64,000 nucleotides of DNA, from NCBI GenBank assembly GCA_964415885.1, contig CAYQCE010000006.1, positions 18,467 through 82,466 on the forward strand. Direction: 5' to 3'. The notes under the pieces were generated by a model. The model ran no database searches, was not told where the DNA came from, and was given only the letters and a program-made list of their open reading frames with translations. The translations under genes and the position numbers were made by a program. The stretch comes from an uncultured Ignavibacteria bacterium (lineage in GTDB: Bacteria > Zixibacteria > MSB-5A5 > JAABVY01 > JAHJOQ01). This document shows, piece by piece, positions 2,795 through 64,000 of the stretch (position 1 is the stretch's first letter; each line of letters opens with the position of its first letter).

Positions 2795-2796
2795 AA

Positions 2797-3444: not shown

Positions 3445-3481
3445 ATCGGCCTCTGACAGAGGCATTGGAGGATAGAGCGGG

Positions 3482-4819: not shown

Positions 4820-4832
4820 GGTACGACCGGAT

Positions 4833-6377: not shown

Positions 6378-6426
6378 TTGCAATCGAAAGCAACTTGCGC
6401 ATAGAGTTCGAAAGGTTGTGATATAG

Positions 6427-7491: not shown

Positions 7492-8660
7492 ACGATTATC
7501 CCATGCCTAAGAAGCGGTCGATGTTCGGGCCTTTCAATATCATCGCCGGGATAATAATCCTCGTCGGCCTTTACCTGACCTTTAAGAGATTTACGGGCGG
7601 TCTCGGGGCGGTCTCGAATTTGAACGACAACACGGCCTGGGGCATCTGGATCGGATTCGACCTGCTGACAGGCGTCGCGCTCGCCGCGGGCGGGTATGTC
7701 ACTGCAGCAGCAGTGTACATCTTCGGGAAAAAAGAGTATCATTCAGCGGTCCGACCCGCAGTTCTGACAGGGTTCCTCGGCTACGCTATGGTCGTGTTGG
7801 CTCTTCTGTACGACGTCGGAAGACCGTGGCGTCTCCCCTATCCATTTTTCGTCAGTCAGGGCGTGACATCGATAATGTTCGAGGTAGGTGCGTGTGTTAT
7901 GCTCTACCTCACGGTTCTGTTCATCGAATTCTCACCGGCTGCAATGGAATGGCTCGGGATGAAGAAGGTGCGAAAGGTCGCAGTTGGGCTTACGATGCTC
8001 CTGACGGTCCTCGGAGTCGTTTTATCGACGCTTCACCAGTCATCGCTCGGCGCACTCTTCCTGATCGCGCCGTCCAAGCTCCATCCGCTCTGGTATTCAC
8101 CCTATCTGCCGGTGTTTTTCTTTGTATCCAGTATCGCGGCGGGACTTTCGATGGTGATCGTGGAATCGACGCTCGCGCACCGAAATTTCCACGATTTAAT
8201 GGACAAGCCGCATAACAGGGAACGCGATAAAATCACACTCGGATTCGGGCGTGCGGCATCACTGGTGCTCGCCGGCTATTCATCGATCAAAATTTTTGGT
8301 ATTGCCGCTGACAATAACTGGCATTATCTGCTGACCGACTACGGTTTGTGGTTCCTCGTGGAGCTGCTCGGATTTGTAATGCTGCCGAGCTTCCTGTTTG
8401 CGATGGGAGTTCGTGAGAAGAACTTGAAACTGATCCGTTTCACGGCGTTTCTGACCGTAATTGGAATAATGCTGAATCGCCTGAATGTGGGCCTCATAGC
8501 GTTCAACTACCATCTGCCGGAAGGCACGGGTTACACTCCACATTGGATGGAGATCGGTATCACTCTCTTCGTGATAACAGTCGGATTGGTGATTTACCGA
8601 TTCGTCGTAACGAGAATGCCGATCTTCTACGAGCACCCGGAATACAGGGAAGCTCACTGA
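7488..8660 (+). CDS. hmcC: HmcC-like integral membrane subunit (NrfD/PsrC family)
   Basis: 390 aa with about 10 TM helices. The ATGA start overlaps the hmcB stop, indicating translational coupling. Confidence 0.7.
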
Positions 8661-11900: not shown

Positions 11901-14104
11901 GCGAAGAAGTAATAGTCGATCTGCGTACCGGGTGACTGAGCCGGAATGGTTCCGTAGAACTCATTGTCGCCGGCGCCCTCCTGCAGCAGATCGGCCATGT
12001 ATCCACCGCCGTCTATGCTGTAGTAGAGAAGAAGCGAATCGGTGTCCAGCGCCTCCTCGGTGTAGATCATACACTCGGCGGTATAGTCATTTGTGTAATC
12101 CTTGGTGTCGGTCAAAGGACTCGGCACGATAACCGCGAGGTCGGATGTCACAACTACGGCTTCCTCGACCGTCGCAAGGTTGTAGCCGGTGACGGTCAGA
12201 GTGATCGACTGACCAATCGGAAGAAGTCCCTCGATCGGTATTGACGCGGTGCCATCCGGACCGGTGTAAGCCGAACCAAAGAGTTCGCCGTTATGGTAAA
12301 GAGCGCACAGGGCACCTTCCTGGCCGACGACCTCGATATCATACGTGTCCATAGCGAAGAAAACCGCTCCGCCGTGGTTTACAGTGATCGCCTCGGGAAC
12401 GTCGGTCCTGACCTGAACCGACGGATCGCCGAAGATATGCCATGTGTTATACATTGACACACCACCGGAGCCGTTGATGTCGATCATCTTGCACGAACCG
12501 TTGAAACAGAGTCCGCCGTACGTGTTCATCTGTTCCTGAATCAGGAGGTGAACCACCTCGTCCTGGCCATCCATCGGAGGATTCCAGGACTGGTTGATCG
12601 ATGACATGTATGCACCGATCGCGCCGGTCGGGCTGGAACCGTTCGTGGCGCGCAACCATGCCTCACCGAAACATGTGTAACCGTCGAACTGACCGTTAAC
12701 GCATGCCACACTGATGATGAACGGCAGCATATTATCATTCACGAGGGCGTTCACATTACTGTTCGAGAAGCCGGAGGAACTCCAGGCGGTAGTCGAACCG
12801 TGTCCCGTGTAGTTTATGATACTGCGACCGTCATTGAGAGCGGCAGCAACCGCCGCAGAGCTCGCGGTCGGATCGTATATCTGGTCGACATACGTGTAAG
12901 TGTAAGAGAACAGCGAATCCCGAATGTAATCGAGGTGCTCATCGTCGTACTCACCGCCGTTGTGTCCCGGACCCTGATTGGACCCGACGCCGGTGCCCTT
13001 GTGGAACCAGCTTCCAGCGAGAGGATTCTTCTCGTACGTGATCGTACGGTCTACCTGCGTTGTCACCTGGGTGCCGTTCTCCGCGGAGAAACGCCCGACG
13101 AAAAGATCCGGGTAGTTATCGGTCGTCATAAGAGCGTATGACGGGTCAGATGATCCACCGGAGGCGTATGGTGTCGCTACCTGTGCGGCGTCTCCAACCA
13201 GAAGGACATAGCCGAGATCAGAAGTGTTATAGATGTTCTGAATGTACGACTTGATTGCGGTAGAATTGTTGCCGATATCAGATACGTTTACCAACGTGGT
13301 CGGAAGACCCTTCTGGTTCTTCCAGTTCACGAACGGAATCATCTCATCCATGAAATCAGCGTAGCAGATTACGAGGAGATCGCCCTCTTCCTGCACGGGC
13401 GTGTACTTGCCCTGGACGAAATCATAGTTGATGAAACGACTCTCGTAGAGGTTATCGAATTCCGGTAGCAGCGTGAAATCGCTCTGCCGGTTCTGGAACA
13501 CGTTGATCTCGCCTGCACCGGCAGCGACAACTTCAACGGTTACCGAAGTATAGACGCGGAGCATGTTCTCGTCAGGCTTAACCTGGAACGGAAGGATCTC
13601 CACGACCGCGCCACGGTAGTCCCTCAGGATATAGGGACTTCCCAGTGAAACTGTGTTGGTCGGATAGAACTCGTTCGAGCTGTAGACGGGACCGAACGCG
13701 TAGGGAACGTCCTCGGGATTCACTGTTCTGAGCAGATTACCCTTGGACGGCACCACCGGAGTATTCGCTATGTCGACAAAATCCGTCGACAGAACGCGAA
13801 TGTCCATCTTGGCGTTGTCGGGAATGATGATACTCCGGCATATTTTCGGAAGCTCGGGTTCGGACTCGTTAAGAAGGATTCCCTCTCTATTGAGGGCAAT
13901 TCTGTAGTAAGTCTGGCCGTTGATATCCACGGCTTCTTTCTCGAAACCCCCAACTTCGAATCGAATGACAGTCCGAATGTCGTTCGACTCTTCAACCGTT
14001 ACTACGACGTCTTCTCCAAAGGCCCTGAGGTCGACATGCTCTCCATATGTCAACGCAGAAAGCGCAAGAAGAAGAACGACAGACAGAAGCACTCTCCTAT
14101 GCAT
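8924..14104 (-). CDS. giant secreted peptidase C25 (gingipain-like cysteine protease) with C-terminal dockerin-like Ca-binding module
   Basis: 1726 aa. An N-terminal signal peptide (MHRRVLLSVVLLLALSALTYG) precedes a propeptide-like region. The C25 catalytic region has a NYTGHGS...W His motif and an ISVACVNGQF Cys motif. About 1000 aa of beta-rich repeats follow. The C-terminus carries paired DxDxDG-type repeats (GDCDGNLAVDIDDVVMLIEYVFG ... GDVDCNDSVDIDDIVYTIAYVFSG) typical of dockerin type I. Confidence 0.75.
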   Translation of the reverse strand: MHRRVLLSVVLLLALSALTYGEHVDLRAFGEDVVVTVEESNDIRTVIRFEVGGFEKEAVDINGQTYYRIALNREGILLNESEPELPKICRSIIIPDNAKMDIRVLSTDFVDIANTPVVPSKGNLLRTVNPEDVPYAFGPVYSSNEFYPTNTVSLGSPYILRDYRGAVVEILPFQVKPDENMLRVYTSVTVEVVAAGAGEINVFQNRQSDFTLLPEFDNLYESRFINYDFVQGKYTPVQEEGDLLVICYADFMDEMIPFVNWKNQKGLPTTLVNVSDIGNNSTAIKSYIQNIYNTSDLGYVLLVGDAAQVATPYASGGSSDPSYALMTTDNYPDLFVGRFSAENGTQVTTQVDRTITYEKNPLAGSWFHKGTGVGSNQGPGHNGGEYDDEHLDYIRDSLFSYTYTYVDQIYDPTASSAAVAAALNDGRSIINYTGHGSTTAWSSSGFSNSNVNALVNDNMLPFIISVACVNGQFDGYTCFGEAWLRATNGSSPTGAIGAYMSSINQSWNPPMDGQDEVVHLLIQEQMNTYGGLCFNGSCKMIDINGSGGVSMYNTWHIFGDPSVQVRTDVPEAITVNHGGAVFFAMDTYDIEVVGQEGALCALYHNGELFGSAYTGPDGTASIPIEGLLPIGQSITLTVTGYNLATVEEAVVVTSDLAVIVPSPLTDTKDYTNDYTAECMIYTEEALDTDSLLLYYSIDGGGYMADLLQEGAGDNEFYGTIPAQSPGTQIDYYFFAKTTNGLADTTEVYSFSVIDYGLLLGPGYQSQTAPVGDTLTYTLTVTNDGVLDDTYSISVEDVDWATTVWDATGTTEITQTDLLSADETFDFQVQVLVPSSWEGESDSIRVVTTSVGDPSFAAGADIISVSAGQPWPIPFTESFLTADLDMTKWEDAGGAEVSTSGIDEPSAPYSINLDGNPSGGDALESEAINLRNESNVILRYYFQQTGDGDSPESGDDLDVEYLDSNGVWHTLDTHPGADPDMTVFEENIVQLPAGAMHAGMRIRFSSTGTAGSYDDWFVDDIYIGHPPSYEVQVMPSFQEQYGPAEGEATFTLFVKNKGLYSDQFSLYDSLAQWNVTFWDEAATSQITSTGIIEPLDSAMIIAKVEIPAATPLNSEDTIMVMARSNGDPSISGGAFICAISAGFPASVPWEEQFPTATLDMSKWMVNIGGAIASNAYNTPSGTYSLLLDGGCDTLISQLIDLTGQDAALLTYYYERKGPGDSPETGEDLVFEYQNSSGEWVEASRQLGSGEDMMSFEYVEVVLTGDALHETFQLRVHSYGNTAGDDYWYVDDIRVDFAPSIAVTPASFDFQLIEGDSASAMITVQNGGPGTLNYTVQSVPVFRGAIGELFTSPYNYLEDYEVEELPDLPKGTPDTREGPAVERDAGGPDNFGYIWVDSDEPGGPVFDWIDVQAVGTEVPIRDAADSLGDDNYFGPVPIGFSFSYYGVSYDELYIASNGFIGFGPDAGYYSRNNTLLPDDDPPNNILAWCWDDLDPTNSNNTSKVYYHSDGNRLVIQFVDYSEYQASAGDVINAEIILYASGRIKFQYQTVASGFDADESATIGIENEAGDDGLTVAFNTSYLKDNLAVEFSAPAQWLTLTPTSGTIEPMGENTITARVNTFGLDIGEYACAVNIYSNDPDTPDNPWSIPVNLLVEEEQQYVCGDCDGNLAVDIDDVVMLIEYVFGSGPAPEPVEAGDVDCNDSVDIDDIVYTIAYVFSGGPEPCADCP

Positions 14105-39555: not shown

Positions 39556-40812
39556 CTAACTCGCTGAGAATATCGATCTAAATGTTTTAGCCAGCGACAG
39601 CAGGCTTTCAGAATTGGCTATTGTCGCAACCGTGAAAAGCCCGCATCCTATTATAATGGCGGCCATCGCTATCATCTTACCAACATCCTGCCCCTTGAGA
39701 GACCCGAGCTGTTTCGGTTCGCCTGAGAGATATGCCGATGCCGCAAATAGCTCCTCACCGATTAGAGTATAGTCGCACGCGGCAACAAAGAACGGAAGCT
39801 GCGCGGGCATTGCTGTGCCGGCGATCTGTATTGCCCCGATCGAGTTACCGGTCTCCGCCATAATCAGTGACTCCGCGAAAAACGCACCCAGATAGAAACA
39901 TGTAGCGGGCTTCTCACGGACCATGATACCGTCGACTGCGGCGACATACCCGAACTGCTCGTCGGTCAGGTAATGAACCATGTCGTCAGAGTAAGCCTCC
40001 GGTCTGCCCGCAGCGACATACGCCTGCTTGACAGTCTCACGCGCGGTGGTCATAACGATCGATCGCGAGACCGGCATGTTGAGCTTTGTATCATAATTTG
40101 CTATTGTCCTTGCAATTCTGCCGAGGATTGTTATTCCAGCAACCGTCTGGACATCATCCATATCGAGAATGCCGGGAATGAAAAGAATGGGACGTCCCAT
40201 CTCGGTCGCACGTCCAATCGCTTCGTCAACCGCCTCGAGACCCGCGATCTTTCGCAGATAGAGCTTCTTGCCTTTTTGGGCAGCGAAGATGAAGAATATG
40301 ACCGAGACAGAGATTATCAGGCCAATGATGAATGTGTCGAGGTCTTTGATGCTGAACCACTGCGCGGATGATGTAACAGGGCGTGAAATCGACGATCTCG
40401 AGGATTCCCCGTCCGCAAAAGTTTCGACGTAGTAATAGTATTCCTCGCCATCGGTCGTGGTCGCATCCTCGAATTCGGTCAGTCCCCTCGAGGCTGAACC
40501 GATGACCTCGAACGGTCCGGTCGGGCTTTGGCTGCGGTAAATGACGTACGAAGTCACATTATCATCGCCTGCGCCGTCATCGGGTGACAATGTCCACGAA
40601 ACATGAATCGAACTACCCGCATCGCCCGGATTGTCCTGCACGACATCGATCCTGGCCGGCTCGGGCGGATCGGCGGGCATGGCTTCCTCGACCGCCATCG
40701 CGGTATCCACCATCGTAGTATCAGGAGTGTCTTCCTCCTGCGCGAGCACCGAAACATGCGCAAAGGCAAAAAACGCGAGTATCGCGAGTATTTTGATACC
40801 CAGACTCTTCAT
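39556..40812 (-). CDS. module copy 2, protein A: FN3/TM/cytoplasmic-domain protein
   Basis: 418 aa with signal peptide MKSLGIKILAILAFFAFAHVSVLA. It is a paralog of the other A proteins. Confidence 0.7.
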   Translation of the reverse strand: MKSLGIKILAILAFFAFAHVSVLAQEEDTPDTTMVDTAMAVEEAMPADPPEPARIDVVQDNPGDAGSSIHVSWTLSPDDGAGDDNVTSYVIYRSQSPTGPFEVIGSASRGLTEFEDATTTDGEEYYYYVETFADGESSRSSISRPVTSSAQWFSIKDLDTFIIGLIISVSVIFFIFAAQKGKKLYLRKIAGLEAVDEAIGRATEMGRPILFIPGILDMDDVQTVAGITILGRIARTIANYDTKLNMPVSRSIVMTTARETVKQAYVAAGRPEAYSDDMVHYLTDEQFGYVAAVDGIMVREKPATCFYLGAFFAESLIMAETGNSIGAIQIAGTAMPAQLPFFVAACDYTLIGEELFAASAYLSGEPKQLGSLKGQDVGKMIAMAAIIIGCGLFTVATIANSESLLSLAKTFRSIFSAS

Positions 40813-43024: not shown

Positions 43025-44266
43025 CTAATTCGCTGTCACTTTAAACAGACTCGCGAAGTCGTATATTCCGAGTGTTTGAATTATGACTCCGATTGCTATC
43101 ACTGCCAGAATAACTCCCTTGCCGACATCCTGCCCCTTAAGCGATCCGAGGAGTTTCGGTTCCTTCGACAGATACGCCGAAGCTGCGAAGAGTTCCTCGC
43201 CGATCAACGTGTAATCGCATGCCGCGACGAAAAACGGCAACTGTGCCGGCATGGCTGTCCCGGCTATCTGTATCGCGCCTATGGAATTTCCAGTCTCTGC
43301 GAGAATCAGAGATTCGGCATAGAACGCGCCCATGTAGAACATGGTAGCGGGCTTCTCGCGCACCACCATTCCGTCGATAGCGGCCGCATATCCAAACTGA
43401 TCGTCAGTCAAATAGTGTACCGTATCCTCGTGAAATGCATCCGGGCGTCCGGCATTCAGATACGCTTCCCTCACAATCTCTCGCGCGGTTACCATGACGA
43501 GCGAACGCGAAACCGGGACATCAAGAGCAGTGTCATACTGCGCAGCGAGCCGTGCCACGCGGCCGAGTATTGTCACTCCGGCAATTGTCTGGATATTTTC
43601 CATATCCTGAGTGCCCGGCACATAGAATATCTTCTTCCCCATCTCCGTTGCGCGTCCCACAGCCTCATCAACCGCCTCAAGTCCTGCGATCTTGCGGATA
43701 AACAGCTCCTTGCCCTTGCGAGCCTGAGAGATGTAGTAGATGATCAGAGACCCGATCACGATTGCGAAGATCAACACAATCGTACGATTTGTGTTGAACC
43801 ACTGTGCTTTGGCTTTAACCGAGCCTGACGGCTCCGAGTAGGATTTCATCTCAACCCATTCGCCGGGAGCCTGCTCAACCCTGTCAACCGTGACTATGCG
43901 ATAGACATACTCGACGCCATTTTCGGCGTAATTGTCGGTGATTCTGGTCTGACCGGATGTCGCGTTGCCCATCACTTCGTAGGTTGCATCGTCAGCGTTT
44001 ATCTCTTTTCGTTCAATATCATAACGGTCGATGACCCCGTTGGTATCATCCGGGGACAACTCCCAGTGAATCTGGATCGAGCCTCCGTGATCGTTGGGAG
44101 TATCATTAGCAGTGACGTTGGCAGCAGGGCGTGGAGCCTCGGGCAGAGACTCAAGCATCTCCGTCTCAGCAAGGGTATCCGTCACAACCCGTGTCGTATC
44201 TTCCTGCGCAAACGCGAACGCACAGGAGACAGAGAGAATCAATATCGTTACAACGGCTTTCTTCAT
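43025..44266 (-). CDS. module copy 1, protein A: FN3/TM/cytoplasmic-domain protein (first gene of 12-gene operon)
   Basis: Start taken at MKKAVVTILILSVSCAFAFA (signal peptide). The 20-codon N-terminal extension in the ORF track is a translation of the upstream terminator hairpin. Confidence 0.7.
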   Translation of the reverse strand: MKKAVVTILILSVSCAFAFAQEDTTRVVTDTLAETEMLESLPEAPRPAANVTANDTPNDHGGSIQIHWELSPDDTNGVIDRYDIERKEINADDATYEVMGNATSGQTRITDNYAENGVEYVYRIVTVDRVEQAPGEWVEMKSYSEPSGSVKAKAQWFNTNRTIVLIFAIVIGSLIIYYISQARKGKELFIRKIAGLEAVDEAVGRATEMGKKIFYVPGTQDMENIQTIAGVTILGRVARLAAQYDTALDVPVSRSLVMVTAREIVREAYLNAGRPDAFHEDTVHYLTDDQFGYAAAIDGMVVREKPATMFYMGAFYAESLILAETGNSIGAIQIAGTAMPAQLPFFVAACDYTLIGEELFAASAYLSKEPKLLGSLKGQDVGKGVILAVIAIGVIIQTLGIYDFASLFKVTAN

Positions 44267-44289
44267 AATTGTGCTGACTACTAAAGAAA

Positions 44290-44320
44290 AGAGACCGTCA
44301 ATAAAGAGCGGACGGTCTCT
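44290..44320 (-). terminator. intrinsic-terminator-like hairpin in the leader of the 12-gene operon (candidate attenuator)
   Basis: A perfect 10-bp stem AGAGACCGTC/GACGGTCTCT with an 11-nt loop is followed on the - strand by TTTTCTTT. The hairpin ends 15 nt before the ATG of the first operon gene. Confidence 0.5.
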
Positions 44321-44419
44321 GGTCAAAATCTATCAAAAGGCTAAGTATGCGAGTTCTTCTGTCGAAACAATCACGTGCAAGCCTTCTTAGCTGGATAATG
44401 TCGATTTCCAAGTTCACCT

Positions 44420-56302: not shown

Positions 56303-57544
56303 TTACTTCGAACCCATCGCCGGCTGATTGATCTCTTCAGCCCGCTTTGCTATCTCCTTCAGGGCCTCGATTGACTTGTCTACATGCTCTTCAGTGTTAA
56401 ATGGACCAATCGAGAATCGAACGCCGCCGTGTATCTTATCTATCCCAAGTTGCCTGTGCACCAGTGGCGCACAATGCAGACCGGTTCGAGTCGCGATATT
56501 GAAATCGACATCGAGCATTATTCCGACATCACCGGCATCCAGCCCTTCGACATTTATCGTGATAGTAGAGATGTGGTTATCCATGCAATCGCAGCAATAC
56601 ATGATGACACCGCCAATTTGCTTGACAGCATCCACGAATCTCCGCGCGAGCTTCATCTCACGCCTGTGAATCTCTTCCACTCCACCCTGATCGCGAATCC
56701 AATCCTGACCCGCCCAGAGTGACGCCACCCCTACCATATTCGGAGTGCCAAATTCCATTCGGTACGGGTACTCATCGAGGTGATATGGAAAAGCAGACCG
56801 GACACCCGTCCCACCGCTTCTTGTGTGCCGAAGCTTAACATGCTGACGGATGCAGAGTCCGCCGATCCCGGTCGAACCCATCAGTGATTTGTGGCCGGTA
56901 AAGGCGAGGATGTCTATGTTCATCTTCTGCATGTTGATCGGGATCATCCCGGCAGACTGGGAGGCATCCACCGCAAATATAACGCCTGCTTTTTTGCAGA
57001 CGTTGCCGATCTCCGTAACCGGCTGAATTGTCCCGATGACATTGGAGGCGTGATTCAGTATCACGAGCCGCGTATTCGGCTTTATCGCAGCGCGGATATC
57101 ATCCGGATCGACGAAACCATCCTGATCGAACGGCACGTACGTTGCCTCAACGCCGTGATCACGAACCATGTGATTGACCGGCCGTATAACGGAGTTGTGC
57201 TCAAGATTGGTCGTGACCACATGGTCACCGTCGGCGAGCATACCCTGCACGATCAGGTTGAGGGAATCGGTGGCGTTGTAGCCGAAGCATAGTCTCTCCG
57301 GAGTCGCCTCGTCCCCACCGAAAAACCGTGTAAGCCGTTTCCGCAGGTTCTCGAGAAGATCCCCCGCCTCAATTGCGCGATCGAATCCACTTCGCCCGGG
57401 ATTGACCCCGCACGATTTGTAGAATTCGATCATGTAGGAGTAGACATTGTCGGGTTTGGGCCACGAAGTTGCGGCGTTGTCGAGATAGATGAGATCTTCC
57501 AATTTGCACACCTCGCTGGAAGAGCCGGGAGCCTGACCGTGCAT
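56303..57544 (-). CDS. cysteine desulfurase / class V aminotransferase (NifS/IscS/SufS-like)
   Basis: 413 aa. The N-terminus is IYLDNAATSWPKP. A PLP-Lys region (TGHKSLMGSTGIGGL) and a conserved C-terminal SIGPFNT segment are present. Confidence 0.8.
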   Translation of the reverse strand: MHGQAPGSSSEVCKLEDLIYLDNAATSWPKPDNVYSYMIEFYKSCGVNPGRSGFDRAIEAGDLLENLRKRLTRFFGGDEATPERLCFGYNATDSLNLIVQGMLADGDHVVTTNLEHNSVIRPVNHMVRDHGVEATYVPFDQDGFVDPDDIRAAIKPNTRLVILNHASNVIGTIQPVTEIGNVCKKAGVIFAVDASQSAGMIPINMQKMNIDILAFTGHKSLMGSTGIGGLCIRQHVKLRHTRSGGTGVRSAFPYHLDEYPYRMEFGTPNMVGVASLWAGQDWIRDQGGVEEIHRREMKLARRFVDAVKQIGGVIMYCCDCMDNHISTITINVEGLDAGDVGIMLDVDFNIATRTGLHCAPLVHRQLGIDKIHGGVRFSIGPFNTEEHVDKSIEALKEIAKRAEEINQPAMGSK

Positions 57545-57628: not shown

Positions 57629-60600
57629 CTACTGCGAGTCAATCTGCCTCAGCAGTATCTCGACCGCCTTCTCGAGCTGCTTATCTTGACCCTCAACCAC
57701 GGTTTCAGGATCATTGTCGACAAGATAATCCGGCTCAAGCTGGGCATTCTCGAGGTAGTTACCACGGTTATCGATTATGCCCACTTCCGGAATCCCGAAG
57801 TAGAGCGATCTATCCTGCAGAGTCTCCCACCAGACCGAGGTTGCAGTGCCGGGCACAGGCATACCGACCAGTTCGCCGATACCGAGTTCACGATACGCCC
57901 ACGGGAAGTAATGGGCGTCGGAGTAATTGCCCTCGCTCATAACTACGATTGATGGACGGTTCCATTTGTCCCACGGCTCCTCGCCGACCTTTTGGCCTCT
58001 CGGCACATTGCTGGCGTAAACTTTGCCGCTAAAGAAAGTCACGAGCTGGTTGGTAAGATTTCCGCCTGAGTTAAACCGCGTGTCGACAACCAGCCCCTCC
58101 TTGTCGGCATTGCGACCCAGAATCTCCGAATAGACATCTCTGAAGCTGCGATCACTCATACTGCGGATATGCACATATCCGAGTCTTCCATCGGAAAGAC
58201 GTTCGGTTTCGGCGCGACGGCTCTCTATCCACCGTTCGTAAAGAAGCCCCCGCTCCGCCCCGAGGCTGATCGGCTTCACAACTTCGTTGAATGTGCCGTC
58301 ATTGTCACGCAGGTTCAATCGCACGTTCTTACCGGCCTTGTGATTAAGAAGTGGATAGAAGTTCATCCCCTCCTCGATCGGGACACCATCGATTTCGAGT
58401 ATGACCGTTCCTTCAGAGATTTTCGTCCCCGGTTTCGAAAGCGGCGATTTTTCAATTATCTCCGCTATTCTCACTCCGGGACCATCATGCTCCGAATCGT
58501 AGAACGCACCGAGTGCCGCCGTGGCGTCTCCGCCCTCCACATTAGAACGATAGCCTGCACCGGTGTGGGATGCGTTCAGCTCGCCGAGCATTTCCGAGAG
58601 CATGTCTGCAAAGTCATGATTGTTGGTTATGTGCGGAAGAAACCGCGCGTACTCCTTCTTGTAGAAGTCCCAATCGACTCCATGCAGGTCCTTCTTGTAG
58701 AATTTCTCTCTTACCTGCCGCCACACGTGTTCAAACAGATGCTCCCGCTCCGCAGCCGGATCGAGATACATCCTGGCGCTGTGACTCACAGGTTTCTTGT
58801 CGCCGCTCCCGATTTCGATCTTCACGAGCTTGCCGTCGGCCACCATGTAAGCGTTCTTACCCTCATCGTCGAGAATAAACGATGAGATTCGCCTTGCATC
58901 GAGCTTCGTGAGAAGCTTGATCTCGGACTCACGGTGCTTGTAGCTCCAGAGATCATAGTTCTTCTCGAACCGAACCAGATACAGCAACTGCTCGCCGTCG
59001 GGCGTGAGGAGAGCGTCCGCCATCCGGGATGAGTGTATGGTCTGGCGCTTCGTTCGGTTTTTGATGTGATCGAGATCATATTCTACGGGGTCCGGAAGCT
59101 CCTTCGGGGTGAACCAGGCAGATTCGTCCTTATCATCGTCTTTGTCGTCATCGTCATCGTCATCTTTCTTGTCTTTGTCATCCCCGTCCTTACCGTCCTT
59201 TTTCTTTGATTTCTCTTCCTTCTTCTTCCAGATTGCGAGTTCGGATTCGCTGAGGTTGTATTTGTACCACGATTCCTCTGTGAAGAATGTCAGCATGACA
59301 TCATCTTCCGACCCCCAGCTACCGTGGGTTCTCATGCCGTATCGATCGGTCAGGTAGACCATGACCTCGCCGTCGAGCGCCCAGCGTGGCCGGAAGTCCT
59401 CGTAGCCGCTGTTCGTGAGATTGGTAACTTCTCCGCCATCAGCGGACACAAGACCGATCTCCGATGACCATCTGCCGCGATCGATGAACTCGACCAAAAA
59501 ATGGCTGCCGTCAGGGGACCAGCTATACCACTGGTCGCTGTCGGTATACGAGTAGTTCATATCGCCCGGCAGTACGACACGGGTCTTGCCGCTCTCCAGA
59601 TCGATCACCTTGAGCGTAGTTCGATTCTCAAGGTACGCCACTTCTTTTCCATCGGGAGAGTAGCTCGGTCGGAACTCCTCGTTCGCTGTAGCGACAATCT
59701 TCTTCTCATTGAAAGACGTTGCTGCGAAGAAATACGGTTCGTTGTCGTCCGCTATGCTGATCGAGAGAACATCCCAGCTCGTGTCCCGCTCGGCGGCAAA
59801 GAGAATCGATCGGGCATCCGGTGAAAATGAGATCGACCGCTCCTGCTGTGGGGTATCGGTCAGCCGACGGGTATCGCCATGCTCTATCGATGTGACGAAA
59901 ATCTCGCCACGCATGATGAACGCCAATTCCTCGCCTGTCGGTGAAAGCGCGAGTTCGGTTACTCCGCCCGGCGGTGTTATATATTTCTTCTCAGCCATCT
60001 CGCGGTCTGAGACAATCTCGATTTCGAGCTTCCGCTCATCAGCGGCTCCGTAGTCAAGAAGATATATTTCGCCGTTGTAGGTATAGCAGAGATCGCCGTT
60101 GTCAGAGGCTGTCAGGAAACGAACTGGATGATTGTCGTGATTCGTGATTTGAGTCGTTTCACCGGTCTGCAGGTCCCTTCGCCAGACATTGAAAGAACCG
60201 CTCTGTTCGCTCAGATAGAACATCGAATTCTGATCAGGTGCGAAAACGGGATTACGGTCTTCACCCGCGAAATCTGTCAGCTTCTGATGTTCTCCCGTGC
60301 GAGTGTCGTAAAGCCACACATCACGGGCAATTGAGGATGTGTGGTGCTTGCGCCAGTCGTCCTCCGGGCCCTTTCTGTCGTAATAGATGATTCGATTTCC
60401 TGTTTTGTCGTATTTCGCGCCAATTGCCGGCGTAGAAAGAACGCGAACCGGTTTGGCGGCATCGAGCGAAACCGAGTACAGCTCCGGAAGGCTGCCGGAT
60501 GGAAACTGAGCGTTCCGGTGATCGTCGATCCTTGCGGCGGTGAAAAGAACCGTCGAGCCATCCGGCGAAAAACCGCTCGGGAAATCGCCGGTCGAATAGT

Positions 60601-60934
60601 AGGTCAGCCGCTTCGCATCTCCCCCGGAACTCGGCATAACATAAATATCGAAACTGCCGTTTCGGTCGGATGCGAAGGCGATCCTGCTGCCGTCGGGCGA
60701 AAAAACCGGCATGAAATCGTGCGACTCATGTAACGTCAAAGGTATGGCCTCGCCTCCAGATGAAGAGATGCTGTACAGGTCTCCCTTGTATCCGAACACT
60801 ACCTGCTCCCCGTCGGGTGATATTGCCGGATATCGAAGCCATAGTGGCGAGGCGGAAAGGACTGCGGGGAGCATAATCAGAATTAGTAAAGACACTGTTA
60901 AAGTTGAAGCCTTTTGTTCTGGTAGGTCGTTCAT
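57629..60934 (-). CDS. tricorn-type protease (PD40 beta-propellers + PDZ + S41 peptidase)
   Basis: 1101 aa with a signal peptide. It has multiple FSPDG TolB/PD40 repeats and a C-terminal S41 domain (RFNSGGN). There is an internal Asp/Lys low-complexity insert (KKKEEKSKKKDGKDGDDKDKKDDDDDDDKDDDKDE). Confidence 0.8.
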   Translation of the reverse strand: MNDLPEQKASTLTVSLLILIMLPAVLSASPLWLRYPAISPDGEQVVFGYKGDLYSISSSGGEAIPLTLHESHDFMPVFSPDGSRIAFASDRNGSFDIYVMPSSGGDAKRLTYYSTGDFPSGFSPDGSTVLFTAARIDDHRNAQFPSGSLPELYSVSLDAAKPVRVLSTPAIGAKYDKTGNRIIYYDRKGPEDDWRKHHTSSIARDVWLYDTRTGEHQKLTDFAGEDRNPVFAPDQNSMFYLSEQSGSFNVWRRDLQTGETTQITNHDNHPVRFLTASDNGDLCYTYNGEIYLLDYGAADERKLEIEIVSDREMAEKKYITPPGGVTELALSPTGEELAFIMRGEIFVTSIEHGDTRRLTDTPQQERSISFSPDARSILFAAERDTSWDVLSISIADDNEPYFFAATSFNEKKIVATANEEFRPSYSPDGKEVAYLENRTTLKVIDLESGKTRVVLPGDMNYSYTDSDQWYSWSPDGSHFLVEFIDRGRWSSEIGLVSADGGEVTNLTNSGYEDFRPRWALDGEVMVYLTDRYGMRTHGSWGSEDDVMLTFFTEESWYKYNLSESELAIWKKKEEKSKKKDGKDGDDKDKKDDDDDDDKDDDKDESAWFTPKELPDPVEYDLDHIKNRTKRQTIHSSRMADALLTPDGEQLLYLVRFEKNYDLWSYKHRESEIKLLTKLDARRISSFILDDEGKNAYMVADGKLVKIEIGSGDKKPVSHSARMYLDPAAEREHLFEHVWRQVREKFYKKDLHGVDWDFYKKEYARFLPHITNNHDFADMLSEMLGELNASHTGAGYRSNVEGGDATAALGAFYDSEHDGPGVRIAEIIEKSPLSKPGTKISEGTVILEIDGVPIEEGMNFYPLLNHKAGKNVRLNLRDNDGTFNEVVKPISLGAERGLLYERWIESRRAETERLSDGRLGYVHIRSMSDRSFRDVYSEILGRNADKEGLVVDTRFNSGGNLTNQLVTFFSGKVYASNVPRGQKVGEEPWDKWNRPSIVVMSEGNYSDAHYFPWAYRELGIGELVGMPVPGTATSVWWETLQDRSLYFGIPEVGIIDNRGNYLENAQLEPDYLVDNDPETVVEGQDKQLEKAVEILLRQIDSQ

Positions 60935-61048: not shown

Positions 61049-61225
61049 GCTTGTTGAAAAACCACAGGACAACGATCATTGCGAGTGAGCGTAGCGAGCG
61101 TGGCAATCTCAAAGCAGCCGTATAGTATTTCCTGACTATGAGATCGCCGCGCCATTCCGCCTCCGCGGGACTCCTCGCGATGACAGCTTTTCCAGCAATA
61201 CGCAATACGAACTTTTTCAACAAGC
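61049..61225. repeat. MITE-like element with perfect 13-bp terminal inverted repeats
   Basis: GCTTGTTGAAAAA (61049-61061) and its exact reverse complement TTTTTCAACAAGC (61213-61225) flank 151 bp of non-coding sequence. The same 13-mer occurs at 56193 and 25215. Confidence 0.45.
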
Positions 61226-61352
61226 TCATTTGTTTCGGGGAACTCATCTGTCTGTCGGATTGTCGAATAGCTTGCGGATAATGGCCAAACACGCCATATT
61301 CAGTGCTTGATACGACGGAGTCATTGAATTCAGGCTCAATAAGGAGCGAAAC

Positions 61353-61700
61353 TTGAGAATCGACAACGATTTTCTGCTGATTATTAAGTCATCGGCTCTC
61401 GGAGAGGGCGAAATCGATCTCGGATCGAAATTGATGGGCAGCTTTCTCACCATGATTCTCGAGTCGGGCAGATTGCCGGAGAAGTTGATATTCTTTAATT
61501 CGGGAATCTACCTGACAACAGAGGGCTCTTCGGTTGCGGAAACGCTGCAGGGATACCTCGAAGCGGGAACCAAAGTGCTGACCTGTGGTACATGTCTCGA
61601 TTATTATGATCGAAAGGAGAATCTGATTATCGGCGAGGCCACGAACATGAAAGATACGGTGGATGCCATCAATTCTCACGGGAAGGTTGTGACCGTCTGA
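61353..61700 (+). CDS. DsrE/YchN-like (YedF C-terminal-domain-like) protein, candidate selenium-handling partner of SelD
   Basis: 115 aa. Residues LIIKSSALGEG...LTCGTCLDYY...GKVVTV align to the DsrE/YchN pattern (..KLCKTC....KVLTF). Its stop overlaps the selD ATG (TGATG). Confidence 0.5.
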   Translation: MRIDNDFLLIIKSSALGEGEIDLGSKLMGSFLTMILESGRLPEKLIFFNSGIYLTTEGSSVAETLQGYLEAGTKVLTCGTCLDYYDRKENLIIGEATNMKDTVDAINSHGKVVTV

Positions 61701-62746
61701 TGCACAGAAGAGATGAGATAATTAAGCTGACCGCTATGGTTTCCTGCGCGGGGTGAGCCTCGAAACTGGGAGCGGGTCCGCTCCGAGAGGTGCTCGCGCA
61801 GTTGCCGCAGGCAGCCAACCCTGATTTGATCGTCGGTTCCAACGCCGCCGATGATGCGGGAGTGTATCGTCTAAACGAAACGCAGGCGCTGGTCGTGACG
61901 TGCGACTTCTTTCCGCCGATAGTCGACGATCCTTACATGTTCGGCCAGATCGCAGCCGCAAATGCTCTCTCCGATGTCTACGCCATGGGCGGTCGGCCTC
62001 TGGTTGCTTTGAACATCCTGTGCTTCCCGTACGGCAAGATCGATGACAGCATAATGGTGAAGCTGCTGACCGGCGGGCACGACAAGGTCGTGGAAGCCGG
62101 AGCTGTGGTCGCTGGCGGTCATTCGGTCAAAGACAGTGAGATGAAATACGGCCTTTCGGTAACGGGTATCGTAGAGATCAACAGAATCATGGCCAATTCG
62201 ACTGCTCGCACCGGTGACAGGCTGATCCTGACAAAGGCACTCGGCACCGGTATTGTTTCTACGGCAATGAAGAAAGATATGGCGCCTGATCATCTCGTCG
62301 AGTGTACCGTTCAGCAGATGGCGCAACTGAACCGACACGCATCCGAGGTCGCGCTGAAATACCGTACGTCCGCAATTACCGATATCACCGGTTTCGGTTT
62401 GATCGGGCATACGCTCGAAATTGCACAGGGTTCCTGTAAGGCGATCCGCATAGACAGCGAGTCGGTTCCAGTGATTGACGGTACAGCGGATCTTGCGATG
62501 AAGGGCTGTCTGACAGGCGGGGGGAACGACAACCGCAAATACGCCGAAGCGTGTGTCAAGTACGAAACCGATTTGCCGGAGTCGATGATACACGTGCTCC
62601 ATGATCCGCAGACCTCGGGCGGGCTCCTGATTGCGATCCACCCGGATGACGCCGAATCGGCTATAGCCGAGATCAGGACTGAAATGACTGAAGCGGAAAT
62701 CATCGGCGAAGTCATCGACGGGACACCGGGTATCACGATCATATGA
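61700..62746 (+). CDS. selD: selenide, water dikinase (selenophosphate synthetase) SelD, selenocysteine-containing
   Basis: ATG at 61700 opens MHRRDEIIKLTAMVSCAG-U-ASKLGAG..., matching the E. coli SelD N-terminus IRLTQYSHGAGCGCK. The in-frame TGA (61754-61756) sits at the Cys17 position. The track ORF (61790..) is the same frame after the TGA. Downstream are the PurM-like SelD domains (DDAGVY, SDVYAMGG, GGHS). Confidence 0.8.
61769..61784 (+). promoter_or_regulatory. bacterial SECIS-like hairpin directing Sec insertion at the selD UGA
   Basis: A 6-bp stem GGAGCG/CGCTCC with a GGUC tetraloop begins 12 nt after the UGA. The loop G and U fall at positions +23/+24 from the U of UGA, as in the E. 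coli fdhF SECIS. Confidence 0.5.
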
Positions 62747-62824: not shown

Positions 62825-64000
62825 TTGCCCGGTTTATCATTCTATTTCCGCACGATACCTATCGACCCTGATTGTAGTGAGAGACTCGCTGTAGCGGCAG
62901 ACTCATTGAAGCTCTTTCCGGAATATCAAGTCGAACTTCTGTACGGCGATGATCACATACGTTTGTATTTCAGCGGCTATCCGGAATATCCCCAGACCAC
63001 ACTAAACACGAGTCGCTACTTCATTCTTCTCGAGGGCAAGATATATGACCGCGACGATAGTAAGGTGTCGCAGCTCTTATCAGAAGTCGCGGAGGCAGGT
63101 ATCGAGTCTGGCAGAGACACGGCAGAGTTTGCCGAGTTTCTCGGGCAACGACTCTCGATGGCAGACGGTGATTACAATATTGTCGTTATTGATAAGCGTG
63201 ACGGTAACTTCCTGATTCTGAACGACTCATTCGGGAAACTCATGTTGTACAGGTATTCCGACGAGAAACAACTCGCGGTCTCACGGGAAGTGAAGTTCAT
63301 TCAAAACGCGACCGGCATTTCGGAAATTGATTCGTACGGTGCCGCGGAATTCCTGATGCTCCGCCATACCCTCGGCGGTAAAACTCTGCTGAAGAACGTA
63401 CACCGCGTTCCGCATGGCTCGTTCATCAGATCAGTCGGCGCCATTGATCCACAGAGCCGGCCCTACGTTGAATGGGATGTTGCGGAACAAGACTACGGTA
63501 GTAGCAGAACAGAAAATGCAAAACATCTGGCAGAGCTCTTCCTGATTGCTACAGCGAATAGAGAAAGAAAGAAATCCCAGCCTGTGTCTCTGCTCGGCCT
63601 TTCAGGTGGAATGGACTCCCGGTGCGTGCTCGGCTCCCTATACAGATGCGAATCCGATTTCGTGGCAGTGAGTACAATCTCGAATTCGAAAGCCAATCTG
63701 CACGATGTGAAGATTGCCGGTGAACTCGCGAGGTCGTTTGATACGGAATTCATAAGCTGGGTACTCAAGCCGACGCCGCTGAGTGATCGACAGAAACTCG
63801 TTGAGTGCAGGGATGGGCTGAACGGATGCCACATGGCTGTGGCGTTCCAGCTTTACCGGGAAACTTTGTCGAGATTTGGGTCTGGAACAAACTTCTATAC
63901 CGGTGACGGCGGCGCACGAATAAAGACTCCATATCGGCTTTTCAAGAGATTTTCGTCACCGCGTGACGTAATCGAATACGCATTTCTCAGAGTATCGAGG
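62825..64000 (+). CDS. asparagine synthetase (AsnB)-like PP-loop amidotransferase homolog, 5' region (partial, runs off window)
   Basis: Open frame from about 62789 to the window end. It has an SGGMDSR PP-loop ATP pyrophosphatase motif (63605-63625) and a VPHGSFI segment typical of AsnB. There is no N-terminal Cys nucleophile (MCG). The start is uncertain; TTG at 62825 lies 6 nt after AGAGGG. Confidence 0.5.
   Translation, partial: MPGLSFYFRTIPIDPDCSERLAVAADSLKLFPEYQVELLYGDDHIRLYFSGYPEYPQTTLNTSRYFILLEGKIYDRDDSKVSQLLSEVAEAGIESGRDTAEFAEFLGQRLSMADGDYNIVVIDKRDGNFLILNDSFGKLMLYRYSDEKQLAVSREVKFIQNATGISEIDSYGAAEFLMLRHTLGGKTLLKNVHRVPHGSFIRSVGAIDPQSRPYVEWDVAEQDYGSSRTENAKHLAELFLIATANRERKKSQPVSLLGLSGGMDSRCVLGSLYRCESDFVAVSTISNSKANLHDVKIAGELARSFDTEFISWVLKPTPLSDRQKLVECRDGLNGCHMAVAFQLYRETLSRFGSGTNFYTGDGGARIKTPYRLFKRFSSPRDVIEYAFLRVSR

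What the first reader, a model, noticed from the sequence alone, without database searches (positions are those of the whole stretch)
61353..62746. Selenocysteine-encoding selD (in-frame UGA + SECIS) translationally coupled to a DsrE/YedF-like gene
The track ORF for selD starts at 61790. However, the frame is open back to an ATG at 61700, interrupted only by TGA at 61754. The upstream peptide (IKLTAMVSCAG-U-ASK) aligns with the conserved SelD N-terminus, placing Sec exactly where E. coli has Cys17. The G and U of a GGUC hairpin loop fall at +23/+24 from the UGA, as in the fdhF SECIS. The selD ATG overlaps the stop of a 115-aa DsrE/YchN-like protein with a CGTC Cys pair. That makes this protein a good candidate selenium carrier or delivery protein (YedF-like) for SelD.
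Basis: partly seen in the sequence, partly recalled or inferred. Interest (0 to 1): 0.6.

Follow-up and report, generated by a model that had tools for sequence, protein, structure and literature searches.

The report
Selenocysteine-containing selD with half-YedF partner
The selD gene here really does start 90 bases earlier than the automatic call and reads an internal UGA as selenocysteine, a correct but well-known feature of this enzyme family, and it is preceded by a small sulfur/selenium-carrier-like gene already linked to selD by comparative genomics.

Summary
An ATG at 61700 opens a 348-codon frame that is interrupted only by TGA at 61754-61756 and ends at 62746.

- **Identity:** the read-through protein is a full-length SelD (TIGR00476, 374 bits). 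The UGA falls exactly on E. coli Cys17 and A. aeolicus Sec13.
- **Relatives:** 77 of the 80 nearest genomic relatives carry TGA at this codon, and the other 3 carry Cys codons. The closest relatives are Zixibacteria.
- **Upstream peptide:** the 18 codons before the UGA evolve by synonymous change.
- **Hairpin:** a 6-bp hairpin puts a GGUC loop at +22 to +25, the same position as in the E. coli fdhF SECIS. It is codon-for-codon invariant in two relatives.
- **Upstream gene (61353-61700):** this 115-aa protein scores as selenium-metabolism YedF (TIGR03527). It contains only the C-terminal DsrE-like half, with an invariant CGTC motif, and lacks the TusA/SirA half. Its stop overlaps the selD start (TGATG).
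- **Neighbour:** a SclA/NifS-like lyase gene lies 4 kb upstream.
- **Not found in the window:** selA, selB and tRNA-Sec.

Sec-SelD is the second most common bacterial selenoprotein family, and the YedF-SelD link was published in 2008 and 2015. This is therefore an annotation correction plus a minor domain variant, not a new system. Interest is low.

The parts
61341..61346 (+). Shine-Dalgarno-like AAGGAG, 6 nt before the TTG start of the YedF-C gene
   Evidence: Read. All 115-aa homologues start at the same position.
61353..61700 (+). yedF-C: 115-aa single-domain DsrE-like protein, equivalent to the C-terminal half of selenium-metabolism YedF (TIGR03527)
   Evidence: TIGR03527 121 bits (cutoff 110), matching model positions 83-193 of 194 only. 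Pfam DsrE 17.3 bits, below the gathering score. AF2 model pLDDT 94.9; Foldseek top hits YchN, DsrE, TusD. 27 hits of 109-115 aa (26 of them 115 aa), plus an 82-aa fragment, in the protein database.
61584..61595 (+). Codons for C78-G-T-C81, part of the 'CGTCLDYY' motif (Cys, Thr and LDYY invariant; Gly varies)
   Evidence: C78, T80, C81, L82, D83, Y84 and Y85 are invariant across 22 one- and two-domain homologues. C78 sits at a strand-to-helix junction. A weak hhalign alignment places it on TusD Cys78.
61698..61702 (+). TGATG: the yedF-C stop and the selD start share one base
   Evidence: Conserved in L082/L083, from other samples.
61700..62746 (+). Full-length selD (348 aa including Sec19); the automatic ORF call from GTG 61790 is truncated
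   Evidence: TIGR00476 374 bits from residue 9; NF002098 336.7 bits (cutoff 299). Aligns from residue 7 to E. coli SelD 3u0o and A. aeolicus SelD 2yye.
61754..61756 (+). UGA selenocysteine codon (Sec19, equivalent to E. coli Cys17)
   Evidence: TGA at the same codon in 77 of 80 relatives, TGT/TGC in 3.
61766..61787 (+). SECIS-like hairpin: C13-G34 and U14-A33, G15/G32 mismatch, 6-bp upper stem 61769-61774 / 61779-61784, apical loop GGUC 61775-61778 (G23 and U24 from the UGA)
   Evidence: Same loop sequence and position as fdhF. Invariant in L001 and L082 apart from A33 to G, which keeps a U-G pair.
56303..57544 (-). SclA/NifS-like PLP enzyme (cysteine desulfurase / selenocysteine lyase family TIGR01977); possible selenium source and a looser member of the neighbourhood
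   Evidence: TIGR01977 403.9 bits (cutoff 377); SclA model 323 bits (below its cutoff of 525). Synteny kept in L082. Homologues next to selD in L006, L016, L046, L061 and L072.

Best explanation
The two genes form a small operon, yedF-C then selD.

**What is shown**
- selD is translated from ATG 61700.
- The UGA at 61754 sits at the codon that is Cys17 in E. coli SelD and Sec13 in A. aeolicus SelD. This residue lies in the glycine-rich N-terminal loop, next to the conserved Lys (K22 here).
- A hairpin begins 12 nt after the UGA. It presents a GGUC loop at +22 to +25, as in the E. coli fdhF SECIS.
- TGA is an ordinary stop elsewhere in this genome, so reading it as an amino acid must depend on local context.

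**What is inferred from established knowledge of bacterial Sec insertion**
- SelB carrying Sec-tRNA(Sec) binds the hairpin and inserts selenocysteine at the UGA.
- The result is a selenophosphate synthetase whose own synthesis depends on its product.

**The upstream gene**
- It encodes a 115-aa protein with a DsrE/TusD-type fold and an invariant Cys-x-x-Cys (CGTC here). This protein is the C-terminal half of the YedF family that comparative genomics ties to SelD.
- My inference is that it carries selenium as a perselenide or selenotrisulfide on C78/C81. The SclA-like lyase encoded 4 kb away may produce that selenium, and YedF-C may pass it to Sec19 of SelD.
- The 1-nt TGATG overlap would keep the two proteins co-expressed by termination-reinitiation.
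- The carrier role and the coupling are not demonstrated.

The confidence figure applies to the Sec-SelD part. For the carrier role I would give about 0.35.
For: - **Frame and codon positions:**
- **SelD identity:** equivalog models are passed only when the N-terminal extension is included, and the match starts at residue 9.
- **Residue alignment:** U19 falls on Cys17 and K22 on Lys20. The motifs DDAGVY, CDFF, SDVYAMGG and TDITGFGL are conserved against the E. coli and A. aeolicus structures.
- **Relatives:** 77 of 80 have TGA at the same codon.
- **Selection upstream of the UGA:** 15 of 18 residues are identical to L001, whose overall identity is 64%. Half of the identical-residue codons differ synonymously.
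- **Hairpin conservation:** codons are identical in 6/7 and 7/7 cases, against 34% and 67% elsewhere in the gene. The one change keeps a wobble pair.
- **fdhF comparison:** the loop has the same sequence and position.
- **Family-level enrichment:** SECIS-like hairpins are enriched in TGA forms and absent from Cys forms.
- **TGA as a stop:** TGA terminates 8 of 24 confident genes in the window, including yedF-C and selD themselves.
- **YedF-C:** TIGR03527 above its cutoff, invariant Cys-x-x-Cys and a DsrE/TusD fold.
- **Neighbourhood:** yedF lies next to selD in 7 of 80 loci from other phyla. SclA-like genes lie next to selD in 5 loci, and L006 has the order sclA-like, yedF, selD.
- **Literature:** SelD is the second most widespread bacterial selenoprotein family (PMC1794560, PMC13188914). 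YedF with a CGXC motif has been linked to SelD and Sec lyase (PMC5322559).
Against: - No selA, selB or tRNA-Sec is present in the 64-kb window or in the related loci examined. The Sec machinery is therefore inferred, not seen.
- No Rfam family matches the hairpin.
- On its own the hairpin is only modestly improbable, at about 5% under synonymous recoding.
- The hairpin lacks the bulged U of the E. coli fdhF upper stem.
- For the carrier idea, most stand-alone 115-aa YedF-C genes are not next to selD. The three other Zixibacteria selD loci have no yedF-C nearby. The adjacency is therefore confined to this lineage.
- The SclA-like gene lies on the other strand, separated from the operon by a tricorn-type protease gene.
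- The SD-like GGAAGG lies 13 nt before the selD ATG, which is longer than optimal.
Confidence: 0.88

Rival explanations
1. The UGA at 61754 is a real stop. SelD is made from GTG 61790 (or TTG 61802, as the gene caller chose in L081) as an N-terminally truncated enzyme, and the upstream 18 codons are untranslated or give a meaningless short peptide.
For: ORF finders and the gene caller choose the downstream start. TGA is a normal stop in this genome.
Against: The truncated form would lack the Sec/Cys-Lys loop that SelD models and structures include. The 18 upstream codons are 83% identical in a relative with 64% overall identity, and they show a synonymous substitution pattern. 77 of 80 relatives keep the same open frame with TGA in the same place.
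Confidence: 0.04
2. The TGA is an assembly or sequencing error, or a recent nonsense mutation (pseudogene), at an ancestral TGC/TGT Cys codon.
For: A single base separates TGA from TGC/TGT. Three relatives do have Cys codons.
Against: The same TGA is present in contigs from other samples (L082, L083) and in another Zixibacteria genome (L001), with the downstream hairpin conserved. The gene downstream is intact and conserved. L081 is 100% identical to the window and may come from the same data, so it is not independent support.
Confidence: 0.02
3. The UGA is decoded, but not as selenocysteine. It might be read through by near-cognate tRNAs as Trp or Cys, or the genome might lack the Sec machinery.
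For: selA, selB and selC were not found in the window.
Against: The aligned position is Sec or Cys in characterised SelD proteins. The hairpin matches SelB-type SECIS geometry. A 64-kb window cannot be expected to contain the machinery.
Confidence: 0.03
4. YedF-C is a sulfur-relay or general thiol-redox protein with no specific role in feeding SelD, and its position before selD in this lineage is incidental.
For: The DsrE/TusD fold is a sulfur-relay fold. Most stand-alone YedF-C genes sit in unrelated contexts. Other Zixibacteria selD loci lack it. Lin et al. note some YedF-containing organisms that lack SelD (PMC5322559).
Against: It passes the selenium-metabolism YedF equivalog model. YedF family genes flank selD in several unrelated phyla, sometimes together with a SclA-like lyase. 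The published YedF-SelD co-occurrence is strong (PMC5322559). The 1-nt overlap is conserved in L082/L083.
Confidence: 0.3

Closest known systems
Selenocysteine-containing selenophosphate synthetase (SelD / SPS2), e.g. Aquifex aeolicus SelD (PDB 2zod, 2yye)
   Same: It has the same PurM-like AIRS_N + AIRS_C architecture. Sec sits in the N-terminal G-x-G-U/C-x-x-K loop, and the UGA is followed by an in-frame hairpin. 77 of the 80 nearest relatives are also Sec forms.
   Different: Nothing substantive. This one comes from a Zixibacteria-like lineage; the best match is 63% identical. No published statement on Sec use in Zixibacteria turned up in two searches.
E. coli SelD (Cys17 form, PDB 3u0o)
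   Same: The alignment is full-length at E = 3e-68, and the catalytic-loop Lys and the Asp-containing motifs are conserved.
   Different: E. coli has Cys17 where this gene has UGA (Sec19).
E. coli fdhF SECIS
   Same: The apical loop GGUC occupies +22 to +25 from the U of the UGA. The lower helix starts at the UGA and there are internal loops below the upper stem.
   Different: The upper stem here is 6 continuous base pairs without the bulged U, and a G/G mismatch lies below it. The sequences are otherwise unrelated.
Selenium-metabolism protein YedF (TIGR03527; 'SirA-like' of Zhang et al. 2008 as cited by Lin et al. 2015, PMC5322559)
   Same: [quoted passage not shown]
   Different: It lacks the N-terminal TusA/SirA domain with CPxP, which Lin et al. 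treat as part of the family signature. No separate TusA-like ORF is present in the window.
DsrE / TusD / YchN sulfur-relay proteins and the UxxC 'DsrE-like' selenoprotein family
   Same: The predicted fold matches (Foldseek probability 1.0, TM about 0.66). A Cys lies at a strand-helix junction, tentatively equivalent to TusD Cys78. The C-x-x-C motif parallels the U-x-x-C of DsrE-like selenoproteins (PMC9312934).
   Different: Sequence identity is 10-20%, and the Pfam DsrE score is below the gathering threshold. No DsrF/H or TusB/C partners are present. Both motif positions are Cys here, not Sec.

Membership tests
SelD (selenide, water dikinase; TIGR00476 / NF002098) | Score above the curated equivalog cutoff over the full length | tested here: met
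   TIGR00476 374 bits (cutoff 125), model positions 1-310 of 311. NF002098 336.7 bits (cutoff 299).
SelD (selenide, water dikinase; TIGR00476 / NF002098) | AIRS N- and C-terminal (PurM-like) domains | tested here: met
   PF00586 90.4 bits and PF02769 65.3 bits.
SelD (selenide, water dikinase; TIGR00476 / NF002098) | N-terminal glycine-rich loop with Sec/Cys at the E. coli Cys17 position and Lys at the Lys20 position | tested here: met
   SCAG-U-ASK aligns with GAG-C17-GC-K20 of 3u0o and with SSG-C-AAK of 2yye. This holds only with the 61700 start.
SelD (selenide, water dikinase; TIGR00476 / NF002098) | ATP-dependent selenophosphate synthesis | not testable with these tools
   Needs an enzyme assay.
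Bacterial selenoprotein gene (UGA + SECIS) | In-frame UGA aligned with Sec or Cys in homologues, with conserved coding sequence on both sides | tested here: met
   77 TGA and 3 Cys codons in 80 relatives. The upstream 18 codons are under purifying selection.
Bacterial selenoprotein gene (UGA + SECIS) | Stem-loop shortly downstream of the UGA with G/U in the apical loop, roughly 16-37 nt from the UGA (the bSECIS model range as I recall it) | tested here: met
   6-bp stem with loop GGUC at +22 to +25. Conserved in L001 and L082. Same loop position as fdhF. Single-sequence significance is modest, about 0.05.
Bacterial selenoprotein gene (UGA + SECIS) | Match to a curated SECIS covariance model | tested here: not met
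   No Rfam hit at the gathering threshold or at E <= 10. This says little, because bacterial SECIS elements are short and diverse.
Bacterial selenoprotein gene (UGA + SECIS) | selA, selB and tRNA-Sec present in the same genome | not testable with these tools
   None in the 64-kb window or in the ten related loci scanned for tRNAs. The rest of the genome is not available.
Selenium-metabolism YedF (TIGR03527) | Score above the curated cutoff | tested here: met
   121 bits against a cutoff of 110.
Selenium-metabolism YedF (TIGR03527) | N-terminal TusA/SirA-like domain with CPxP motif | tested here: not met
   Only model positions 83-193 are matched. In the alignment, the two-domain homologues have about 85 extra N-terminal residues that the 115-aa clade lacks. 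The upstream frame shows no CPxP motif. No TusA-like ORF is present in the window.
Selenium-metabolism YedF (TIGR03527) | C-terminal DsrE-like domain with CGxC motif | tested here: met
   C78-G-T-C81, with both cysteines invariant in 22 homologues. The motif is described in PMC5322559.
Selenium-metabolism YedF (TIGR03527) | Genomic association with selD | tested here: met
   Overlaps the selD start. YedF family genes lie next to selD in 7 other loci.
DsrE/DsrF/YchN/TusD superfamily | DsrE-type alpha/beta fold | tested here: met
   AF2 model pLDDT 94.9. Foldseek top hits are 1jx7 YchN, 2hy5 DsrE and 2d1p TusD, probability 1.0.
DsrE/DsrF/YchN/TusD superfamily | Pfam PF02635 above the gathering score | tested here: not met
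   17.3 bits against 22.7.
DsrE/DsrF/YchN/TusD superfamily | Persulfide-carrying Cys equivalent to DsrE/TusD Cys78 | tested here: inconclusive
   hhalign places C78 on TusD Cys78, but at E = 0.03 and probability 1.7%. C78 lies at a strand-to-helix junction in the model.

The most novel reading that the evidence does not exclude
The stand-alone DsrE-like half of YedF could be the dedicated in-vivo selenium donor for SelD. In this reading it takes a perselenide from the nearby SclA-like lyase onto C78/C81 and hands it to Sec19 of SelD, and translational coupling sets the ratio of the two proteins. The loss of the TusA half in this 115-aa clade would then mark a minimal selenium-relay module.
Probability: 0.3. 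Interest if true: 0.5.

Novelty: new member of a known kind. Interest (0 to 1): 0.2.

Why it matters
**Practical value.** The automatic gene call (start at 61790 or 61802) removes the catalytic Sec/Lys loop, so selD here would be annotated as a truncated enzyme. The correct model starts at 61700 and has Sec at codon 19. A Sec-SelD also implies that this Zixibacteria-like organism runs the full selenocysteine machinery. I found no published statement on that in two searches.

**Scientific value.** The physiological selenium donor for SelD is still described as unresolved (PMC13188914). A minimal single-domain YedF fused in expression to selD, with a SclA-like lyase nearby, is a compact system in which that question could be tested. 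The YedF-SelD-lyase association itself was already predicted (PMC5322559).

Tried and rejected
- **Rfam:** scans at the gathering threshold over the whole window and at E <= 10 over 61600-61900 gave no SECIS or other relevant hit.
- **RNAalifold:** the five Zixibacteria-type sequences gave no usable covariation. The L002/L003 hairpin (GGCCAA-AGUUC-UUGGCC) is shifted by 1-2 nt relative to the window hairpin, so columns are not homologous. These loci do keep a hairpin at the same place despite a different peptide.
- **Shuffle z-scores:** they are weak (-0.7 to -1.4). The validated fdhF SECIS scores no better (-0.9), so this test does not discriminate.
- **tRNA-Sec, selA, selB:** ARAGORN found no tRNA at all in the window or in ten related loci. 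NCBIfam scans of 20 large ORFs found no SelA or SelB; the 621-aa and 461-aa candidates are a GlmL-like protein and a CoA-transferase.
- **A hidden TusA half upstream of yedF-C:** I tested whether it could be encoded behind the in-frame TGA at 61308. The translation of 61095-61352 shows no CPxP motif, and all 115-aa homologues start at the same Met. Rejected.
- **Other selenoprotein genes in the window:** a blind scan for TGA-interrupted frames gave about 120 candidates, dominated by antisense frames and adjacent genes. Nothing convincing emerged and I did not pursue it.
- **Organism name:** the cluster look-up returned no accession or name.
- **Sequence search of YedF-C against PDB:** no significant hit. 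The fold search was needed.
Full report
**1. What is in the sequence**

On the + strand, an ATG at 61700-61702 opens a frame that runs to a TGA stop at 62744-62746. Its only interruption is a TGA at 61754-61756. The mechanical ORF list reports only the downstream part, starting at GTG 61790. Gene callers on related contigs chose the codon equivalent to TTG 61802. No other in-frame ATG, GTG or TTG lies between the preceding stop and 61700 (read).

Just upstream is a 115-codon ORF at 61353-61700. It has a TTG start, with AAGGAG 6 nt before it, and ends in TGA at 61698-61700. Its stop and the ATG share one base (TGATG).

**2. The downstream gene is a full-length, selenocysteine-type SelD**

With the UGA read through (modelled as Cys), the 348-aa product passes two SelD equivalog models. 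These are TIGR00476 (374 bits, cutoff 125, match starting at residue 9) and NF002098 (336.7 bits, cutoff 299). It has the AIRS_N and AIRS_C domains.

Against solved structures it aligns from residue 7 with E. coli SelD (3u0o, E = 3e-68) and Aquifex aeolicus SelD (2yye, E = 1e-59). The UGA codon falls on E. coli Cys17, K22 falls on Lys20, and the segment SCAG-U-ASKLG matches GAG-C-GCKIS and SSG-C-AAKVG.

**3. Comparison with relatives**

A scan of one genome per species returned 80 loci. The best three are Zixibacteria MAGs at 63%, 55% and 53% identity.

- Translating upstream of each match shows the same conserved N-terminal peptide (x-LT-x6-G-*-A/G-x-K-I/L-G).
- The codon at this position is TGA in 77 loci and TGT/TGC in 3.
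- Against L001 (64% identity overall), 15 of the 18 residues before the UGA are identical, and 7 of the 14 comparable codons differ synonymously. Against L082 (88% identity, from another sample), 16 of 18 residues are identical with 5 synonymous differences.

This is the pattern of a translated, constrained peptide, not of a 5' leader. TGA also terminates 8 of 24 confident genes in the window, including both genes discussed here. The genome has therefore not reassigned TGA, and decoding it must depend on local context.

**4. The hairpin**

Counting the U of UGA as +1, the RNA folds as follows:

- a lower helix starting at +2;
- pairs C13-G34 and U14-A33;
- a G15/G32 mismatch;
- a 6-bp upper stem, G16-G21 with C26-C31 (window 61769-61784);
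- an apical loop G22 G23 U24 C25 (window 61775-61778).

I checked my recollection of the E. coli fdhF SECIS sequence against the E. coli collection. It is an exact match within fdhF in 5,413 genomes. That element folds with its GGUC loop at the same +22 to +25. The difference is that fdhF has a bulged U in its upper stem, whereas the window hairpin has six uninterrupted pairs.

Taken alone, the hairpin is not strongly significant.

- Its dinucleotide-shuffle z-scores are -0.7 and -1.4, though the validated fdhF element scores only -0.9.
- When the peptide ASKLGAGPLREVLAQ is recoded synonymously with this genome's codon usage, 5% of recodings give the same hairpin. The MFE is in the lowest 2%.

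The comparative data are stronger.

- The seven hairpin codons are identical in 6/7 cases against L001 and 7/7 against L082. The background for identical-residue codons elsewhere in the gene is 34% and 67%. The single change (A33 to G) turns a U-A pair into U-G.
- Across the family, 49 of 68 distinct TGA forms have a hairpin of at least 5 bp with GU in the loop at +16 to +37. The mean under synonymous recoding is about 6%. None of the three Cys forms has one.
- L002 and L003 encode a different peptide here (LGPKFLA) yet still form a hairpin at the same place (GGCCAA-AGUUC-UUGGCC, z = -4.1).

Formal covariation on five sequences was uninformative because of a 1-2 nt register shift. Rfam has no matching model.

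**5. The upstream gene**

The 115-aa protein scores 121 bits on NCBIfam TIGR03527, 'sulfurtransferase-like selenium metabolism protein YedF' (cutoff 110). It covers only model positions 83-193 of 194. Its Pfam DsrE score is 17.3 bits, below the gathering score of 22.7.

A database search found a clade of stand-alone proteins of 109-115 aa, some labelled YedF by their sources. It also found more distant 190-201-aa proteins that add an N-terminal TusA/SirA domain (PF01206).

- In the alignment, C78, T80, C81, L82, D83, Y84 and Y85 (motif CGTCLDYY) are invariant across both architectures. The window protein simply lacks the first ~85 residues, which carry the CPxP motif.
- No TusA-like ORF is present elsewhere in the window. 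The frame upstream of 61353 shows no CPxP motif.
- An AlphaFold model built on the alignment is confident (pLDDT 94.9). Its best PDB matches are YchN (1jx7), DsrE (2hy5_A) and TusD (2d1p_A), at probability 1.0 and TM about 0.66. The DsrE/YchN fold claim is therefore confirmed.
- C78 sits at the end of a strand and the start of a helix. A weak profile alignment (E = 0.03) puts it on TusD Cys78. That TusD Cys78 is the persulfide-carrying cysteine is my own recollection. The equivalence is suggestive only.

**6. Neighbourhood**

- The gene order SclA/NifS-like (56303-57544, minus strand), tricorn-type protease (57629-60934, minus strand), yedF-C, selD, asparagine-synthase-like is conserved in L082 and, where that shorter contig reaches, L083, which come from other samples.
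- The SclA/NifS-like protein passes TIGR01977 (403.9 bits, cutoff 377). It scores 323 bits on the SclA selenocysteine-lyase model, below that model's cutoff of 525.
- YedF-family genes flank selD in 7 of the 80 loci, including Sporomusaceae, Dehalococcoidia and Thermodesulfobacteriota.
- SclA-like genes flank selD in L006, L016, L046, L061 and L072. L006 has the order sclA-like, yedF, selD.
- In contrast, the other Zixibacteria selD loci have no yedF-C nearby. Three other stand-alone yedF-C genes sit in unrelated contexts: one alone, one before Hdr-like genes, and one after an HGD-D gene.
- The tight yedF-C/selD junction is therefore specific to this lineage.

**7. How it most likely works**

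*Shown:* the gene structure, the identity of both proteins, the alignment of the UGA with the Sec/Cys catalytic position, a conserved hairpin with SECIS geometry, and the overlap of the two reading frames.

*Inferred from the established bacterial mechanism:* SelB carrying Sec-tRNA(Sec) recognises the hairpin and inserts Sec at codon 19. This gives a selenophosphate synthetase with Sec in its N-terminal selenium-binding loop, the arrangement described for this family (PMC13188914).

*Speculative:* YedF-C carries selenium on its C-x-x-C and passes it to SelD. The SclA-like enzyme supplies that selenium from selenocysteine. The TGATG overlap couples translation of the two genes.

**8. Comparison with what is known, and verdict**

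- SelD is listed as the second most common bacterial selenoprotein family (38 of 285 selenoproteins in 2006, PMC1794560; 'second most expansive' in 2026, PMC13188914).
- YedF (TIGR03527, SirA-like plus DsrE-like domains, CGXC motif) was proposed to be linked to SelD and Sec lyase by Lin et al. 2015 (PMC5322559), who cite Zhang et al. 2008 for the earlier 'SirA-like' link.
- DsrE-like selenoproteins with a UxxC motif are also catalogued (PMC9312934).

The finding is therefore correct but ordinary. It corrects a truncated gene call and adds a Sec-SelD from a Zixibacteria-like lineage. The only mildly new element is the single-domain YedF variant whose stop overlaps the selD start. That variant fails the two-domain signature Lin et al. 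use for YedF orthologues, while keeping the conserved Cys motif.

Noticed in passing
window 1529-8660 (+): A run of genes for a sulfate-reducer-type transmembrane electron-transfer complex. It comprises TmcD-like (1529-2794), TmcB-like (3482-4819; 733 bits, just under the cutoff of 735), the 16-haem cytochrome HmcA (4833-6377), HmcB (6427-7491) and HmcC (7488-8660). This Tmc/Hmc hybrid set is notable in a Zixibacteria-like genome.
   Followed up: partly
window 56303-57544 (-): A cysteine desulfurase / selenocysteine-lyase family protein (TIGR01977, SclA-like) lies 4 kb from selD. Homologues lie beside selD in five loci from other phyla.
   Followed up: partly
window 57629-60934 (-): A tricorn-type protease homologue (1101 aa) contains a highly charged Lys/Asp-rich low-complexity insert (…KKKEEKSKKKDGKDGDDKDKKDDDDDDDKDDDKDE…) in the middle of the protein.
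   Followed up: no
window 39556-40812 (-) and 43025-44326 (-): Two paralogous DUF6754 proteins (414 and 419 bits) lie about 2 kb apart within a long minus-strand gene run. Their function is unknown.
   Followed up: no
window 8924-14104 (-): A very large (1726 aa) gingipain-like Peptidase_C25 protein with propeptide, Ig-like and BACON-like domains.
   Followed up: no
window 62825-64000 (+), runs off the window end: An asparagine-synthase-like gene with an SGGMDS-type PP-loop motif (598-599 aa in L081/L082, weak GATase_7 hit) immediately follows selD. It is syntenic in the close relatives, and any link to selD is unknown.
   Followed up: no
L086 6001-9683; L087 4712-6348: Stand-alone yedF-C homologues elsewhere sit next to heterodisulfide-reductase-like genes (Fer4, CCG, FAD/NAD proteins) or directly after a 2-hydroxyglutaryl-CoA-dehydratase D-component gene. 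The second context echoes the dehydratase/activase links that Lin et al. listed for YedF (PMC5322559).
   Followed up: no
L007, L009 and most Bacillaceae loci, +29 to +47 from the UGA: In Bacillaceae selD, the SECIS-like hairpin with a GU-containing loop is a second, more distal 8-bp stem (GGCGCAGG-UUC-UGCGUC). It lies downstream of a first GGUCC/GGACC hairpin. The SelD SECIS position therefore differs between clades.
   Followed up: partly
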